Assembly: GCA_964016885.1 (NCBI GenBank) | Contig: OZ024756.1 | Location: forward strand, 15,004,001 to 15,068,000 | Length of the DNA: 64,000 nt | From: Eledone cirrhosa | Taxonomy: Eukaryota | Direction: 5' to 3' | Shown: one piece after another, positions 6,075-43,218 of the stretch | Layout of the letters: each line of letters opens with the position of its first letter | Numbering within the stretch: the first letter of the stretch is position 1 | Program-made: the position numbers and the translations under genes | Notes under the pieces: model-generated | Seen by the model: the letters and a program-made list of their open reading frames with translations, nothing else | Databases searched by the model: none | Told to the model about the DNA's origin: nothing

Positions 6075-6152
6075 GTAGAAAAGAAATGTTGTTGTTTTTG
6101 TTGTTGATTTGTTCGTTTGTTGTTGAGCTGCGGGGAAGAAAAGTATTATAAT

Positions 6153-8122
6153 AGTTGTTTCTACTTTAGGCACAAGGCCAGCAATTACCCAGTGCATTAC
6201 TGGTACTTTATTTTATCGACCCCGTAAGGTTGAAAGGCAAAGTCAACCTCGGCGGGATTTGAACTCAGATCGTAAAGGGACGTAACTATGCTGGAAAGCA
6301 TGGCGTCCGACCCTCTACCGATAATTGTTTCTACTTTAGGCACAAGGCCAGCAAATACCCAGTGCATTACTGGTACTTTTATTTTATCGACCCCGTAAGG
6401 ATGAAAGGCAAAGTCAACCTCGGCGGGATTTGAACTCAGATCGTAAAGGGGCGTAACTATGCTGGAAAGCATGGCGTCCGACCCTCTACCGATAATAGTG
6501 AGCAGAAATATGTGTGAAGGTTTGAAAACATCAGAGCAACAATGCTGCTTTCTAATTCAGTGACAACACCAGCGACTTGTGGGACGGGAGTGGGGTGTGG
6601 TGCTTTATTTTATCGACTACAGGGGTTGAAAGACAAAGCTGACCTCAGCGAGATTTGCACTCAAAACTTAATGAGTCGAATCAAATACCACAAAGCATTT
6701 TATGGGTTGTTCAAACAATTCTCCTAATCCAGCGTCTAACAGGAAAATATGGCAGTTTCTAATTTAAGCAGAAAGCCAATAAATTGGGGAGCGAGAACAG
6801 TCAATTAAATCGACACCACGTCGTCTTGACCGGTTCCATCTCTATATACATTTCTGCGATTCTGTCACAGCACGTAAAGAGAGGGGAGTAGTTTGACTAC
6901 CTCATACTACTCCTCTCTCTCTTTACGTCTGCTGCTTGTATGTATGTGTGAATGTATGTGTGTGTAAAAGGGGGAAAGGGGATGGGGGGGGGGGGGGATA
7001 AACTACGCTGTGTATAGTGTGTGTGTGTGTGTGTGTATGTGTGCGGGTGTTTGCGTGAATGTATGTCTGTGAGCGTGTATTTTTGTAAGTGTGTCTGCGT
7101 GTTTATATTTATATACTCATACATATAAATGTATGCATTTTCACATACACACACGCATATACACACACGTACACACATATACACACACGTACTCACATAT
7201 ACACATACGCGTCAGCATATGGAAAAAACATTCTAGTATTTTATAAACTTCCAGGAAGATAGTTGACCTCGGTAAAATATTTTGTCAATATAATAATAAT
7301 AATTGTTTCTACTTTGGCACAAGGCCAGCAAATTATCCAGTGCATTACTGGTACCTTATTTTATCGACCCCGTAAGGATGAAAGCAAAGTTAACCTCGGC
7401 GGGATTTGAACTCAGATCGTAAAGGGACGTAACTATGCTGGAAAGCATGGCGTCCGACCCTCTACCGATACTGCCAATCCATGGTTTCTGATTTAGGCAT
7501 AAGGGCAACAATTCCAGGGGGGGGGGGGCAAGTCACCCAAATTGACCCCAGTGCATTACTGGTACTTTATTTTATCAACCCCCGTAAGGATGAAAGGCAA
7601 AGTTAACCTCCGCGGGATTTGAACTCAGATCGTAAAGGGACGTAACTCTATGCTGCAAAGCATGGCGTCTGACCCTCTACCGATACTGCCGATCCACCGT
7701 CCATCAACTGACACTAATAATTGTTTCTACTTTTGTCACAAGGACAGCAATTACTCCAGTGTATTACTGGTACTTTACTTTATTGGCCCCGTAAGGATGA
7801 AAGGCAAAGTTAACCTCGGCGAGATTTGAACTCAGAATGGCAAGGGCCGTAACTCTTTGCTGCAAAGCATGGCGTCCGACCCTCTACCGATACTGCCAAT
7901 CCACTAATCCACCCTGACACTAATAATAATAATTGTTTCTACTTTTGGCACAAGGCCAGCAAATAACCCAGTGCATTACTGGTACTTTATTTTATCGACC
8001 TCGTAAAGATATAAAGGCAAAGTTAACCTCGGCGGGATTTGAACTCAGATCATACAGTGAGGTAACTCTATGCTTCAAAGCATGGCGTCCGACCCTCTAC
8101 CGATACTGCCAATCCACCGCCT
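6153..8122 (-). mobile_element. Cluster of six tRNA-headed SINE copies (6153-6323, 6324-6495, 7302-7480, 7485-7700, 7720-7905, 7932-8122)
   Basis: Repeated TTGTTTCTACTTT.GGCACAAGGCCAGC...GGATTTGAACTCAG...CCCTCTACCGATACTGCCAATCC. An older diverged copy lies near 6600-6740. Confidence 0.9.
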
Positions 8123-8161
8123 GACACTAATAATAATAATTTGTTTTTGTTGTTATTGTAG

Positions 8162-17899: not shown

Positions 17900-18650
17900 T
17901 CAAGAAATTGTGGGAGTATTGTCAAGAGGTTTATTCTTGTTTTGTAGACCTCGAAAAGGCATATAACTTGCTGTGGAAGGTTCTGCTGGAATATGAGATC
18001 GATAATCAGCTCCTTGCTGCTCTGATATCTCGATACGAATGCCTGAGTTTTGTGTTCGGATAAATGATTCTAAATCGAAACCATTCAATGTTGTAGTCGG
18101 ACTCTGCCAAGCGTGCATTCTGTCACCTCTTCTGTTCATTATTTACATAAACAGATTGACATGCACAACCGGGTTGGAGATAGTATCAAGACTGTTGAGT
18201 ATAAAATTAGTCGGCTGGAATTTGCAGACGAGATGGTGTTACTTAACTCGGAAGGAGGTGATCTCCGACTTCCACTGGATAGGTTTGATGCCAAGTGCTG
18301 CATGGTTGGAATGAAAATCAGTGCTGCGAAAACTGAGACACTTGTCCTCTCAAAGAGGCCTGCCCAGTGCACACTACATGTGAATAGAGTTCCACTGAGG
18401 AAGGTAGAGAAGTTCAAGTACCTCGGGGCCGTGTTCACGAGTGATGGAAGGCAGGAAGTTGAATTAAGTGCAAGAATTGCAGGAGCTGGTGCAGTAATGT
18501 GCCAGCTTCCGGATTCGGTAATCAGAAGAAGGGAGGTAGGTGTAAAAGCCAAACTCGATTTCTTCAATTCAGCATTTGTGCCAACCCTTACCTATGGTCA
18601 TGAATCTTGGGTAATGACTAAAAGAATACAATCGCCAATACAAACGTTGG
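17900..18650 (+). mobile_element. RTE-clade LINE reverse transcriptase fragment (frameshifted)
   Basis: FVDLEKAY, GLCQACILSPLLF, LEFADEMVLL (YADD equivalent), EKFKYLG, PTLTYGHESW. Confidence 0.88.
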
Positions 18651-18788
18651 CTACATATATGTATCTGTGACTATGTCTAAATATATATATGTCCTTATGA
18701 CTTTCTTCTATATTCCCTAACGGTTGAGTAAACCTTAGACGGTAACTAATTGCTTTTTCTACCAATGAACTTACTTGCCACCGGCCTT

Positions 18789-34853: not shown

Positions 34854-36620
34854 TCTTTTACTCTTTTACCTGTTTCAGCCATCCGGCTGAGGCCATGCTG
34901 GGGCACCGCCCTTGTTGCTACACATTTTATCTCCAGCCTGTATAGGTTGGCCACTGGTGTAGGAGGGAGTTTGTTGCTGCTGCCCTTAGGTTTCCCTCGT
35001 GTCTTGCTGTGGGCTCATCCGGGATCCTGGATAACAAGGTGTCGAGATGTTTCTTAAAGACATCCACCTCCACGTCATGCAAGTCTCGCAGATGCCTCGG
35101 CAGCCTGTTGAAGAGTTGAGGGCCCTTGAATCCCAGGCTATTGCAATACCTGCTCCTTATTCTAGATGTGGAAGACGGGACCTTTGGCACCACACAGTGA
35201 CGTCCTGTTCGACGGTTGGTCCAGCTCCCAATGCCAAAGTTTGGTGCTAGTCCCTCCAGGATTTTCCACATGTAGATCACTGCGTATCTCTCCCGTCTTC
35301 GCTCCAAGGAGTAGAGGTTCAGTTCCTTCAGCCTCTCCCAGTAGCTTGTCTCCCTCATCTTGGCAATCCTCTTGGTGTAGCTTCGCTGGATTGCCTCAAG
35401 CTCTGTGGTTAGTTTGACACTATGGGGTGACCACAGCTGGGAGCAGTAGTCCAGGCGGCTTAGGACAAAAGTCCTCCACAGTGTCAACATGGTGTCTCGA
35501 TCTCTTGTAAGGAAAGTCCTCAAGATCCAGCCAGCGAATCGTCTACATGCTGTCGCCACCTTCATGATGTGTGAAGAAAAAGATGCATCATCGCTCATGT
35601 CTATGCCCAGGTCTCGTATCGATTTTGACACGGGGATATCGGTCCCTCCTGGTCCTGTGTAGCTGTGTTCCGCTATATTTGTGTTTGTGTTTGCAGGTTT
35701 GTATTGTAGGGCTTGGAATTTGCCAGCATTAAACTGCATGTTGTTTTCTTCCGCCCATCTGTATATGGCATCCAGATCCTGCTGTAAGAGGGCAGCGTCA
35801 GCCGGGTTTTTGATTGCCTGTGCTACCTTAGTGTCATCAGCATAGCTAGTGAGGGATGTTGTTGCATGCACCACAGAGGGCATGTCCGAGAGAGCCACCA
35901 AAAACAGTAGTGGTCCCAGGACTGTCCCCTGAGGCACCCCACTTGTTATCGGTGTCTCCCTCGAGAGGGCCCTATTTGCTGCGACTGCCTGGCTTCTGTC
36001 CCTCAGGAAGCCATGCAGCCACTCACCTACTTTTCCAGTTATGCCGAGTCCGTGTAGTTTGTGACATATCATTCCGTGGTCGACCTTGTCAAAGGCCTTC
36101 GCAAAGTCAAGATATATCACGTCTACATGTGAGCTGTCTAGTAGCTGTCTCAGTACCCAGTCGTAGTGATGTAGCAGCTGTGTAAGGCAGCTTCTTCCTG
36201 GGCGGAAGCCATGTTGCGTGCTAGTCAGGCGATCATTTTCTTCGAGGAAAGTGATTAGTTTCTTTCTGACGACTCGCTCCATGACCTTACTGATATGCGA
36301 CGTCAGGGAGACTGGCCTATAGTTCTTGGCCTCCGCTCTACTACCTCCTTTATGGATAGGGCATATTGTGCCTTCTTTCAGCTCCCCGGGTAGTACACCG
36401 CTAGCCAAGGAGCTTCTGAAGAGCATCTTCAGTGGAGTTGCTAAGGCCCGCTTACATATTTTTAGGAGAACTGCTGGGAATCCATCAGGTCCAGCAGCCG
36501 AGTCTGTTCTAATTTCATCAATGGCGTACACCACATCCTCCTCCGTTATGTCTATGTGGTTGATGGTTGCCATTTCTTGATGTAGTGTTGTGGCATCAAA
36601 GAACTCCTCTGGCTTCGTTA
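34851..36620 (-). mobile_element. 5'-truncated CR1-clade LINE with an uninterrupted RT ORF (34927-36620)
   Basis: [62 protein letters not shown]. The 3' UTR GGCGGTGCCCCAGCATGGCC...GCTGAAAC ends in (TAAAAGAG)2. Inserted in (TA)n. Confidence 0.93.
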
Positions 36621-36633
36621 TTTGCATATATAT

Positions 36634-36688
<55 letters not shown>

Positions 36689-36888
36689 TATATATATATG
36701 TATATATATATGTATATGTGTGCATGTTTTTGTGTGTGTATGCGTGTGCATGTGTGAATATGTTTGTGTGTCTGTATATATATGTATATATATATATATG
36801 TATATGTGCATGTGTTTGTGTGTGTATGCGTGTATATGCGTGTGCATGTGTGAATATGTTTGTGAGTCTATATATATATATATATGTG

Positions 36889-40336: not shown

Positions 40337-40396
<60 letters not shown>

Positions 40397-40487
40397 ATAT
40401 ACCTATACATTCATATGTGTATATACATATATATCGATATGAATGTATATACGTACGTATATATGCATATAAATATATATATATATA

Positions 40488-40834
40488 TACGATATTAATA
40501 AATGGAAACTATAATTATAAAACCATATTTATTTCATTATACATATTTCAGGGATACCAAATTAAATTATGGTATGCCTTCATCAGACAAAATACAATAT
40601 ATAACAGTTTTACAAATAAGCTTTGACGTACCCTATTAAAATGCAACCAAAAATAATGGCTTCAAAAAATAATGGTTGCATTTTAATAGGGTACGTCAAA
40701 GCTTATTTGTAAAACTGTTATATATTGTATTTTGTCTGATGAAGGCATACCATAATTTAATTTGGTATCCCTGAAATATGTATAATGAAATAAATATGGT
40801 TTTATAAATATAGTCTCCATTTATTAATATCGTA
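40488..40834. mobile_element. ~160-bp-arm inverted repeat with a family A HHR on each strand (plus 40728-40792, minus about 40530-40594)
   Basis: CTGATGA-AGGCATACCA..TGGTATCCCT-GAAA-TATGTA-TA. Flanked by ~85-bp direct repeats at 40390-40475 and 40952-41035. Confidence 0.85.
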
Positions 40835-41173
40835 TATCTACTCCAAATACTTGTCGAGTGCTTTATATCAGTTATAAAAATATTTACTTGTTGTATCCCA
40901 ACAATTTTAAATAGAACTTTTGCATATATATATATATATATATATATATTCACATATATATACCTATACATTCATATGTGTATATACATATATATCGATA
41001 TAAATGTATATACGTACGTATATATGCATATATACATATATATATAAGAAATAACATTTCGCTTCAAGCTTAGCTTTATACAATAGGTATAGAAATACGG
41101 TTTTAGGAAGCCGTAGGTATGCAAACACCGGGGTTATCGCCCTCTGGTGGTGTCCAGCAGAAGCAAGGGGGAC

Positions 41174-41219
41174 AACCGTCTATGCATTTCAGGCTTGACT
41201 GGCCTTCGTCAGGACGGTT
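41174..41219 (-). ncRNA. Canonical minimal type I hammerhead ribozyme in a retrozyme-like unit (41048-41450)
   Basis: AACCGTC-CTGACGA-AGGC cagtcaa GCCT-GAAA-TGCA-TA-GACGGTT. Stem I is extended by 41152-41167 pairing with 41230-41245. Confidence 0.85.
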
Positions 41220-41507
41220 CCACCCACCGCTTGCTACTGCTGGACTTGAAAACAGTCGAGAATATATAGTTTTCTCGTCTGTGTAAGTGAGCTGATTAAT
41301 CTCATTTGCATATGAAGCTGCATAAGTTGGCTCAACTAATAATTGAAAAGAAATAAGATGTCACTTCAAGCATAGCTTTATACAATATGTATAGAAATTT
41401 CGTATTTCTAAAGAAATACTGTTTTAGGAAGCTGTAGCTATGCAAACACATATTATATATATATATATGTAATAAATGTACACATAAATATATAAATATA
41501 CACATAA

Positions 41508-41546
<39 letters not shown>

Positions 41547-42128
41547 CATAAATATATATACATATATATATGTACATAAATATATATACATACATATATA
41601 TACATATATATACACATACATATATATATACATACATATATATATACATATACATATATATACACATACATATATATATACATACATATATATATACGTA
41701 TACATATATATATATATACACATACATGTGTATATACATATATATATATATATATATACACATACATATATATATATGTGTGTATATATATATATTTGCA
41801 TATATATATATATATATATGTTTATGTATGTATATACATGTATGCATGATGCACATATGTATATACAGACATGTATATAGATATATATACGTACATATAT
41901 ATGTATGTATACACTCTCACATGTGTATATATGCATACAAGCTGGCATTCATAGATAAGCAAAATGTAAAATAATAAGCCAAGAAGGAGGAAGGTCTCTC
42001 TAAAAGCGAACTTAAAATTATTTAACATGTCCGACAACAATCTGGAGAAACGCCGCTTGGAATGGAGTTAAATCTTTTGAAATGGAGATAGTAAAATATG
42101 TAGAACTGAAACGTGCGGAAGAATGAGA

Positions 42129-43218
42129 CCAACAGTAATAAGTGTTTATACTTTTGGCACAAGGCCAGCACATAACCTCTGTGTATTACTGGTACTTTAT
42201 TTTATCGACCCCGTAAGGATGAAAGATAAAGTTAACCTCGTCAGAATTTGAACTCAGATCATAAAGGGACGTAACTCCAACAGTAATAATTGTTTCTACT
42301 TTTGGCACAAGGCCAGCAAATAACCCCCGTGTATTACTGGTACTTTATTTTATCGACCCCGTAAGGATGAAGGATAAAGTTAAGCTCGTCAGAATTTGAA
42401 CTCAGATCATAAAGGGACGTAACTCCAACAGTAATAATTGTTTCTACTTTTGGCACAAGGCCAGCAAATAACCCCCGTGTATTACTGGTACTTTATTTTA
42501 TCGACCCCGTAAGGATGAAGGATAAAGTTAAGCTCGTCAGAATTTGAACTCAGATCATAAAGGGACGTAACTCCAACAGTAATAATTGTTTCTACTTTTG
42601 GCACAAGGCCAGCAATTAACCCCCCGTGTATTACTGGTACTTTATTTTATCGACCCGGTAAGGATGAAAGATAAAGTTAACCTCGTCAGAATTTGAACTC
42701 AGATCATAAAGGGACGTAACTCCAACAGTAATAATTGTTTCTACTTTTGGCACAAGGCCAGCAATTATCCCAGTGTATTACTGGTACTTTATTTTATCGA
42801 CTCCGTAAGGATGAAAGCCAAAGTTAACCTCCGCGGGATTTGAACTCAGACTAATAATTGTATCTACTTTTGGCACAAGGCCAGCAATTATCCCAGTACA
42901 TTACTGGTACTTTATTTTATCGACCCCGTAAGGATGAAAGGCGGGATTTGAACTCAGAATGGCAAAGGCCGTAACTCTATGCGTCAAAGCATGGTGTCCG
43001 ATCCTCTACCGATACTGCCAATCCACCCAGACTAATAATTGTTTCTACTTTAGGCACAAGGCCAGCAATTACCCAGTGCATTACTGGTACTTTATTTTAT
43101 CGACCCTGTAAGGATGAAAGGCAAAGTCAACCTCGGCGGGATTTGAACTCAGATCGTAAAGGGACGTAACTATGCTGGAAAGCATGGCGTCCGACCCTCT
43201 ACCGATACTGCCAATCCA
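42129..43218 (-). repeat. Head-to-tail array of seven SINE-derived units, the first four with a ~148-bp period
   Basis: The junction GGGACGTAACTCCAACAGTAATAATTGTTTC repeats at about 42277, 42425, 42573 and 42722. Confidence 0.9.

What the first reader, a model, noticed from the sequence alone, without database searches (positions are those of the whole stretch)
41048..41450. Retrozyme-like ~300-bp unit: canonical hammerhead on a long hairpin between direct repeats
Seen: the minus strand reads AACCGUC-CUGACGA-AGGC(CAGUCAA)GCCU-GAAA-UGCA-UA/GACGGUU with perfect stems. Stem I is extended by a second 16-bp helix (41152-41167 with 41230-41245). The unit is bounded by ~80-100-bp diverged direct repeats (41048-41128 and 41350-41450), has no ORF, and has (TA)n on both sides. 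Inference: this is about 1.3 copies of a ~300-nt monomer, as expected from reverse transcription round a small circular RNA (non-LTR retrozyme).
Basis: partly seen in the sequence, partly recalled or inferred. Interest (0 to 1): 0.85.

Follow-up and report, generated by a model that had tools for sequence, protein, structure and literature searches.

The report
Penelope-copied hammerhead RNA circle element
This is one of a few thousand scattered copies of a 321-base non-coding repeat that carries a hammerhead (self-cutting RNA) motif, and the copies' ends and lengths suggest that a Penelope-type jumping-gene enzyme wrote them into DNA, likely by copying round a small RNA circle.

Summary
Observation confirmed with corrections. 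There is an intact type I hammerhead on the minus strand (cut after 41181). The period is 321 bp, not ~300, and this copy is 1.3 units with one ribozyme. The family is dispersed: 1,402 exact cut-site matches, only 54 exact head-to-tail pairs. Compensatory changes between subfamilies keep stems I and II. Insertions carry the Penelope-like (PLE) footprint: 3' ends at two sites ~43 nt apart, running into (TA)n, and head-to-head arms in 46 of 74 loci, one end of each type in 88 of 99 classed pairs. No copy held is the terminal repeat of a coding PLE. Arms read through the cut site, show no fixed 5' end, and stop about 3.7 times more often after ~265-295 nt, close to one lap. A coding PLE family used as control shows a fixed 5' end and stops at its cut site. 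This favours, but does not prove, a circular template (~0.65); an uncut linear multimer remains possible. No RNA data were available. Verdict: a new member of the metazoan non-LTR retrozymes. The scan noted the same anatomy in other families of this genome.

The parts
41046..41449 (-). Whole insertion: one arm of 1.3 units of the 321-bp repeat (subfamily 0), no inverted partner arm
41129..41449 (-). One full period (321 nt, 42% GC); as a circle it folds to -96.2 kcal/mol, z -5.0 (opposite strand -104.8, z -6.4)
41174..41219 (-). Type I hammerhead: stem I, CUGACGA, stem II, GAAA, 2-bp palindromic stem III; predicted cut between 41181 and 41180
41152..41245 (-). Extended stem I hairpin (15 of 16 pairs in the outer helix) that would hold the two cut ends together
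41348..41449 (-). 5' repeat: the second-lap part of the cDNA; holds upstream copies of end sites B (~41388) and A (~41347)
41046..41128 (-). 3' repeat with a 19-nt deletion; ends at site A (inferred RT start, 'tail' form) and runs into (TA)n
40924..41045 (.). TA-rich microsatellite at the 3' junction (target)
41450..41911 (.). TA-rich microsatellite at the 5' junction (target)

Best explanation
This is a 1.3-unit copy of a non-coding 321-nt hammerhead repeat present in thousands of dispersed copies, likely a non-autonomous element (non-LTR retrozyme) inserted by a Penelope-like retrotransposon protein that probably copied a unit-length RNA circle. Steps: (1) SHOWN: intact hammerhead whose stems are kept by compensatory change; no ORF; at least 54 loci with two cut sites in tandem. 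(2) INFERRED: a two-ribozyme locus is transcribed, cut twice and ligated to a ~321-nt circle, as shown for coral, mussel and axolotl retrozymes (PMC7229834). (3) INFERRED from the footprint and PMC11167929: a PLE RT/GIY-YIG protein nicks both strands of a (TA)n target and starts cDNA at two internal sites, about 112 (B) and 155 (A) nt after the cut site, one per strand, which gives head-to-head arms with one tail (SHOWN as anatomy). (4) INFERRED: the RT runs across the sealed cut site, and when it comes round to the start region it must displace cDNA or bound protein, so it stops about four times more often (rates SHOWN). The window copy is a site-A arm that stopped ~100 nt into its second lap and has since decayed; it is a product, not a source. 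Confidence: PLE-mobilised hammerhead element ~0.9; circular template ~0.65.
For: Family size: 1,402 and 1,247 exact matches of two motifs; rough estimate 3,500 cut-site-bearing copies. Selection on the fold: an older subfamily has stem II GAAC/GUUC in place of AGGC/GCCU (3 of 4 pairs changed on both sides) and a U-A for C-G pair in stem I. PLE footprint: 69 of 80 3' ends at sites A or B; 46 of 74 loci head-to-head; arm classes AB 88, BB 8, AA 3 among 138 pairs. PLEs are abundant here (10,595 GIY-YIG candidates, 150 scored; RT by Pfam in 7 of 7 long frames and GIY-YIG in 5 of 7). A coding family has the same two ends (40 long, 36 short of 76 arms). One template lineage per insertion: subfamily letters agree in 351/369 tandem and 472/506 arm comparisons against 0.50 at random; rare variants are shared 7.3% and 8.8% against 1.2%. 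No break at the cut: 1 of 60 first-lap arms stop near it, and the junction length is exact in 121 of 122. No fixed 5' end in 90 second-lap runs. Stop rate goes from 0.0036 to 0.0132 per nt at 265 nt (CI 265-295); the step lies at 285-305 nt in A arms and 245-265 nt in B arms, the same place on the unit. Control: the coding family has 45 of 59 arms stopping 130-200 nt upstream of the anchor, 4 of 71 at its cut site, and low rates (0-0.0025) further up. Only 1 exact trimer exists, and its private variant is rare among other copies.
Against: No RNA was seen: expression, cleavage and circles are untested. In vitro a PLE uses uncut linear RNA and does not need its hammerhead (PMC11167929), so read-through of the cut site alone does not prove a circle. 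The step lies 25-55 nt short of a full 321-nt lap. For B arms a smooth Weibull rise fits almost as well (log-likelihood difference 1.7; A arms 12; all 7). One search pools samples chosen by different motifs, and ends were called by BLAST. The control has only 14 long copies and is not shown to be the partner. No autonomous partner with similar ends was found (0 of 42 PLE loci). The compensatory changes are one event between lineages, and the older copies were picked by an exact stem II pattern. Folding stability is not strand-specific. There is no A>G editing excess on the ribozyme strand (135 A>G against 190 T>C). Masters may be lost or unassembled, since the family is ~3.5% diverged.
Confidence: 0.65

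Rival explanations
1. Same element and same PLE enzyme, but the template was a long uncut linear multimer transcribed from a master array that is now lost or not assembled; circles may exist but were not the template.
For: Uncut RNA is the main substrate of the anole PLE in vitro (PMC11167929). It explains read-through of the cut site, exact junctions and shared variants equally well. One ~10-unit array exists.
Against: It gives no reason for the same sequence to be copied with a ~4-fold higher stop rate in the second unit (0.004 against 0.016 per nt). There is no fixed 5' end, unlike the coding control. The one long array is diverged, internally duplicated, and its shared variant is in 4 of 171 passes at that column.
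Confidence: 0.22
2. The unit is just the pseudo-LTR of a coding PLE, and the copies are 5'-truncated partial tandems of it.
For: Hammerhead-to-end geometry and tail are like those of coding PLEs here and of PAc. Li et al. 2026 report pLTR ancestry of Xenopus retrozymes.
Against: Upstream of the unit lies another unit, an inverted arm or flank. No shared body was found in 50 unpaired runs. Of 312 locus records, 16 have a PLE protein hit and 3 have it upstream on the same strand, and in all 3 an inverted arm or microsatellite lies between. No DNA match to 42 PLE loci. Remote pLTR ancestry is not excluded.
Confidence: 0.06
3. The template was the cut linear monomer, and the RT jumped from its 5' end to the 3' end of the same or another monomer, helped by stem I.
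For: Stem I would hold the ends together. Jumping round one molecule would mimic a circle, including the second-lap slowdown.
Against: Jumps should leave stops or indels at the cut: 1 of 60 and 1 of 47 arms stop there and 121 of 122 junctions are exact, whereas the coding control does stop at its cut.
Confidence: 0.05
4. Satellite DNA spread by DNA-level duplication, with an incidental hammerhead.
For: Seven copies on C1 are segmental duplicates, and one array has an internal duplication.
Against: Fixed 3' ends, spread 5' ends, A/B arm asymmetry, microsatellite targeting and compensatory changes.
Confidence: 0.02

Closest known systems
Metazoan non-LTR retrozymes (Cervera and de la Pena 2020, PMC7229834: passages, first third of Results and Discussion read; Li, Clavereau and Pollet 2026, 10.64898/2026.07.22.740005: parts 1-3 of 5 read)
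   Same: Type I hammerhead with a 2-bp stem III, 150-450-bp non-coding monomer, GC under 50%, thousands of copies, dimers present, self-paired monomer; PLEs proposed as mobilisers.
   Different: Here almost all copies are short dispersed arms (median 0.84 unit), often head-to-head, not arrays of up to 62-300 units. The window copy has one ribozyme and would be a 'monomer', not 'active', in Li's terms. Circles and cleavage were shown there and not here. The parts read do not describe two fixed ends, arm asymmetry or lap-dependent stopping.
EN+ Penelope-like elements (PMC8557442 and PMC3846280: passages read; PMC11167929: main text and methods read)
   Same: Hammerhead ~100-150 nt upstream of two RT start sites, optional 30-40-bp tail on one arm, inverted 5'-truncated copy, partial tandems, AT-rich or microsatellite targets.
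   Different: No ORF, no fixed 5' end, tail ~43 nt; no partner identified by sequence.
Coding Neptune-like PLE family of this genome (L157, L158, L163; clade label from my reading of the linker cysteine motif, not from a tree)
   Same: 3' hammerhead with palindromic 4-nt stem III, two ends ~117 and ~168 nt after the cut, (TA)n junctions, head-to-head pairs.
   Different: Has an RT+GIY-YIG ORF, a sharp 5' pile-up and stops at the cut site; no sequence similarity to the unit.
Plant LTR retrozymes (as described in the two retrozyme papers above)
   Same: Non-autonomous, hammerhead, circular RNA intermediate proposed.
   Different: Type III hammerhead, true LTRs, PBS/PPT and 4-bp TSD; here type I and variable-length repeats.

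Membership tests
Metazoan non-LTR retrozyme | Type I hammerhead with intact core | tested here: met
   core intact in 131 of 161 passes, part of them selected on the core
Metazoan non-LTR retrozyme | Monomer 150-450 bp, GC under 50%, non-coding | tested here: met
   54 natural cut-to-cut units of 311-339 nt, mode 323, GC 0.43; open stretches within the shuffled range
Metazoan non-LTR retrozyme | Head-to-tail repeats with two or more ribozymes (family level) | tested here: met
   54 exact pairs, 1 exact trimer; a small minority of copies
Metazoan non-LTR retrozyme | Two ribozymes in this copy ('active' in Li et al.) | tested here: not met
   one ribozyme, no second unit nearby; the copy is a monomer-class derivative
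Metazoan non-LTR retrozyme | No fixed LTRs | tested here: met
   repeat length varies with arm length; PBS and PPT were not scanned
Metazoan non-LTR retrozyme | TSD longer than 4 bp when present | tested here: inconclusive
   no clear non-microsatellite TSD in the flanks examined; targets are microsatellites
Metazoan non-LTR retrozyme | Expressed as linear and circular monomer RNA; self-cleaves | not testable with these tools
   no RNA holder listed
PLE-mobilised non-autonomous element | Two fixed 3' ends with an optional tail on one arm | tested here: met
PLE-mobilised non-autonomous element | Inverted 5'-truncated copy and partial tandems | tested here: met
   46 of 74 loci
PLE-mobilised non-autonomous element | Microsatellite or AT-rich target | tested here: met
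   57 of 66 A/B ends run into a microsatellite
PLE-mobilised non-autonomous element | End similarity to an autonomous partner | tested here: inconclusive
   none in 42 PLE loci out of 10,595 candidates
Coding PLE (pLTR of) | RT+GIY-YIG ORF contiguous with the repeat | tested here: not met
Plant LTR retrozyme | Type III hammerhead in true LTRs | tested here: not met
   type I topology

The most novel reading that the evidence does not exclude
The genome records reverse transcription round an RNA circle by a Penelope enzyme. Both RTs of one insertion start at two sites of a 321-nt circle, cross the ligated hammerhead site unhindered, and slow about four-fold when they come round to the start region, a lap signature absent from a linearly templated coding PLE in the same genome. 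This would be direct genomic evidence for the proposed retrozyme cycle and a general test for circular templates in any repeat family.
Probability: 0.55. Interest if true: 0.72.

Novelty: new member of a known kind. Interest (0 to 1): 0.5.

Why it matters
The retrozyme papers propose that an autonomous RT, perhaps a PLE, copies small hammerhead circles back into the genome, but say that the mechanism is not established. This family gives a large natural data set in which the PLE footprint is plain and the template form leaves a measurable trace (no 5' end, no stop at the cut, higher stopping after about one lap). With the existing in vitro PLE system it yields a direct experiment: circle against uncut dimer against cut monomer. 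The element itself is of a known kind, and the scan has already noted the same anatomy in younger families of this genome.

Tried and rejected
Rfam: no hammerhead match at gathering score or at E up to 5. RNA: no RNA holder listed, which says nothing on expression. Runs X1, X3, X4 (kind unknown) and X5 (DNA) were laid; they show a multi-copy repeat and variants only. My first '0 of 79 5' ends at the cut site' was biased, because those patterns span the cut; I replaced it with a downstream-anchored sample. An apparent 5' pile-up at the C-tract (18 against 8.5 expected) suggested a transcription start for a 1.3-unit RNA. The dedicated second-lap sample showed a smooth decay (KS against exponential p 0.14), so I rejected it as a mix of laps. 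RNA-editing scars, a lead from note e1-8803865, were not found (slight T>C excess, p 0.012). Rolling-circle translation was rejected: stops in all frames and most units not multiples of three. Two inverted copies 4.5 kb apart (L061) frame an integrase-like fragment, not a PLE. The long array L217/L218 was rejected as master. Rows dropped: 14-15 duplicate or segmental-duplicate records, 1; arms with ends at neither site or at locus edges were left out. Literature searches found no paper on this family or on head-to-head retrozyme arms (0 papers); the library lacks most subscription papers, and I read no supplements, which may list cephalopod retrozymes.

Full report
OBSERVATION. The minus strand holds a complete type I hammerhead: stem I 41219-41213/41180-41174, CUGACGA, a 4-bp stem II with a 7-nt loop, GAAA, a 2-bp stem III within the palindrome AUGCAU, and a predicted cut after 41181. 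The scan gave 6 hits in the window and none in 100 shuffled windows. The outer helix has 15 pairs and a U.U mismatch. The 302-nt stretch folds at z -5.0, and one period folded as a circle at z -5.0, but the opposite strand folds as well (z -6.4). There is no ORF and no Rfam match.

FAMILY. In the 3.0-Gb genome the unit gave 2,927 candidates, 40 scored. Exact motifs matched 1,402 and 1,247 times. A rough estimate is 3,500 cut-site-bearing copies (37 of 92 passes exact; probably low). Exact head-to-tail pairs number 54 and trimers 1. Two subfamilies differ at 12 columns, and copies lie a median 3.3-3.6% from each column's commonest letter. An older third subfamily (59 exact matches, 20 examined) changes three of four stem II pairs and one stem I pair on both sides while keeping the core (18 of these and other copies aligned). 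This is one evolutionary event and those copies were picked on stem II, but it shows that the fold was maintained.

INSERTION ANATOMY. I sampled by position on contig C1 with a motif downstream of the cut (78 records from the first 100 of 1,247 matches; 74 after duplicates; 80 runs). Of these, 35 3' ends fall at site B (~112 nt after the cut), 34 at site A (~155) and 11 elsewhere. 46 of 74 loci have a second arm joined head-to-head, and the median arm is 0.84 unit. Over all loci held, 138 distinct pairs class as AB 88, BB 8, AA 3, and 39 with an end at neither site. In an earlier sample 57 of 66 A/B ends ran into a microsatellite. This matches the PLE description: an inverted 5'-truncated copy and a 30-40-bp tail on one end (PMC8557442, PMC3846280; passages). 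The anole PLE protein nicks and extends both strands of AT-rich DNA and starts at two internal sites that bound the tail (PMC11167929; main text read). That the two arms are primed from the two strands is my inference from this paper and from earlier notes of the scan.

MACHINERY. The genome holds many PLEs (10,595 GIY-YIG candidates, 150 scored; RT in 7 of 7 long frames and GIY-YIG in 5 of 7; one frame of 1,096 aa). One coding family has a 3' hammerhead and ends ~117 and ~168 nt after it. None of 42 PLE loci matches the unit. No shared body lies upstream of 50 unpaired runs, and none of 312 locus records (232 distinct left flanks) has an ORF running into the unit. The partner is therefore unidentified, and the unit is not seen as a coding element's pLTR.

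TEMPLATE. Passes within an arm and the two arms share subfamily letters (351/369, 472/506; random 0.50) with no upstream/downstream bias. They share rare variants 7.3% and 8.8% of the time against 1.2% within a subfamily. Arms cross the cut site: 1 of 60 first-lap arms stop near it, and 121 of 122 junctions have the exact length. In 90 runs from 91 matches that reach a second lap, 5' ends decay smoothly at 0.016 per nt, with no pile-up at the cut or elsewhere. The same sequence is copied at 0.004 per nt in the first lap. Over 292 arms with delayed entry, a step from 0.0036 to 0.0132 at 265 nt (CI 265-295) fits better than a Weibull rise (by 7 log units; A arms 12, B arms 1.7). The step falls at 285-305 nt for A arms and 245-265 nt for B arms, both ~25 nt before site A on the unit. 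As control I measured 76 arms from 70 records of the coding family (7,061 matches). They share the two ends (40 and 36), but 45 of 59 stop at one place, 4 of 71 stop at the cut (p ~0.001), and the 14 longer copies stop rarely. A linear PLE RNA thus leaves its start and its cut in the copies, and this family leaves neither.

LIMITS. Uncut linear RNA is the main substrate of the anole PLE, so read-through alone proves nothing. The step is short of a full lap and needs an assumed footprint. Samples were motif-selected and pooled, and the control is small and not the proven partner. A lost master array cannot be excluded. The one long array (~10 units, C2:83.92 Mb) is diverged, and its shared variant is in 4 of 171 passes. 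No editing signature was found. No RNA was available.

THE WINDOW COPY. It is a single site-A arm of subfamily 0 between two TA tracts, 1.3 units long, stopped ~100 nt into its second lap. Its repeats differ at 8 of 83 sites, as expected from decay after insertion. With one ribozyme it cannot make a monomer by itself.

COMPARISON AND NOVELTY. The family meets the sequence-level definition of metazoan non-LTR retrozymes (PMC7229834); expression and cleavage could not be tested. PLE origin is argued for Xenopus retrozymes in 10.64898/2026.07.22.740005, and PLE mobilisation of circles is proposed in PMC7229834. Eight searches found no description of this family. Eight earlier notes of the scan describe 310-, 422- and 467-nt families of this genome with like anatomy; none matched this sequence, and they are leads, not support. 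That the host is a cephalopod is a recalled resemblance of its repeats, not tested.

VERDICT. New member of a known kind; interest 0.5. PLE-mobilised hammerhead element ~0.9, circular template ~0.65.

Noticed in passing
window 40482-40923: A second, unrelated hammerhead family: two head-to-head arms (168-nt inverted repeat, 98%) with ribozymes at 40586 (-) and 40736 (+), the + arm ~83 nt longer at its 3' end; similar copies occur in other loci.
   Followed up: partly
window 40386-40481 and 40949-41045: About 95 nt of complex TA-rich sequence is duplicated on both sides of that insertion, like an unusually long target-site duplication. The 321-nt copy abuts the right-hand duplicate.
   Followed up: partly
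window 12788 (+) and 40144 (-): Two more hammerheads with the same stem I but different stem II; three hammerhead insertions cluster within 40.1-41.5 kb.
   Followed up: no
L157, L158, L163 and L357-L426: Coding Neptune-like PLE family with 7,061 exact 3'-end matches; most copies are ~270-320-nt solo terminal repeats with a sharp 5' end, often head-to-head, and some begin at the hammerhead cut site, a sign of cleavage in vivo.
   Followed up: partly
L154:1275-4562 (+): [quoted passage not shown]
   Followed up: no
L217:8631 to L218:1935 (G000:C2, 83.92 Mb): About 10 head-to-tail units of the family in one arm, with an internal block duplication and a variant shared by all units.
   Followed up: yes
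window 41130-41135 and family: The C-tract after the GGGC-GUUA-GCCC hairpin varies from 4 to more than 15 bases among copies.
   Followed up: partly
window 34927-36867 (-) and 18074-18670 (+): Frames that look like LINE reverse transcriptase fragments; not scanned.
   Followed up: no
window 6151-8140, 42129-42850 and elsewhere: Tandem and dispersed copies of a 130-213-bp SINE-like repeat, and several 38-56-bp minisatellites.
   Followed up: no
flanks of L029, L075, L090, L098, L101: Another repeat with a hammerhead-like core recurs next to family copies, again at TA tracts.
   Followed up: no
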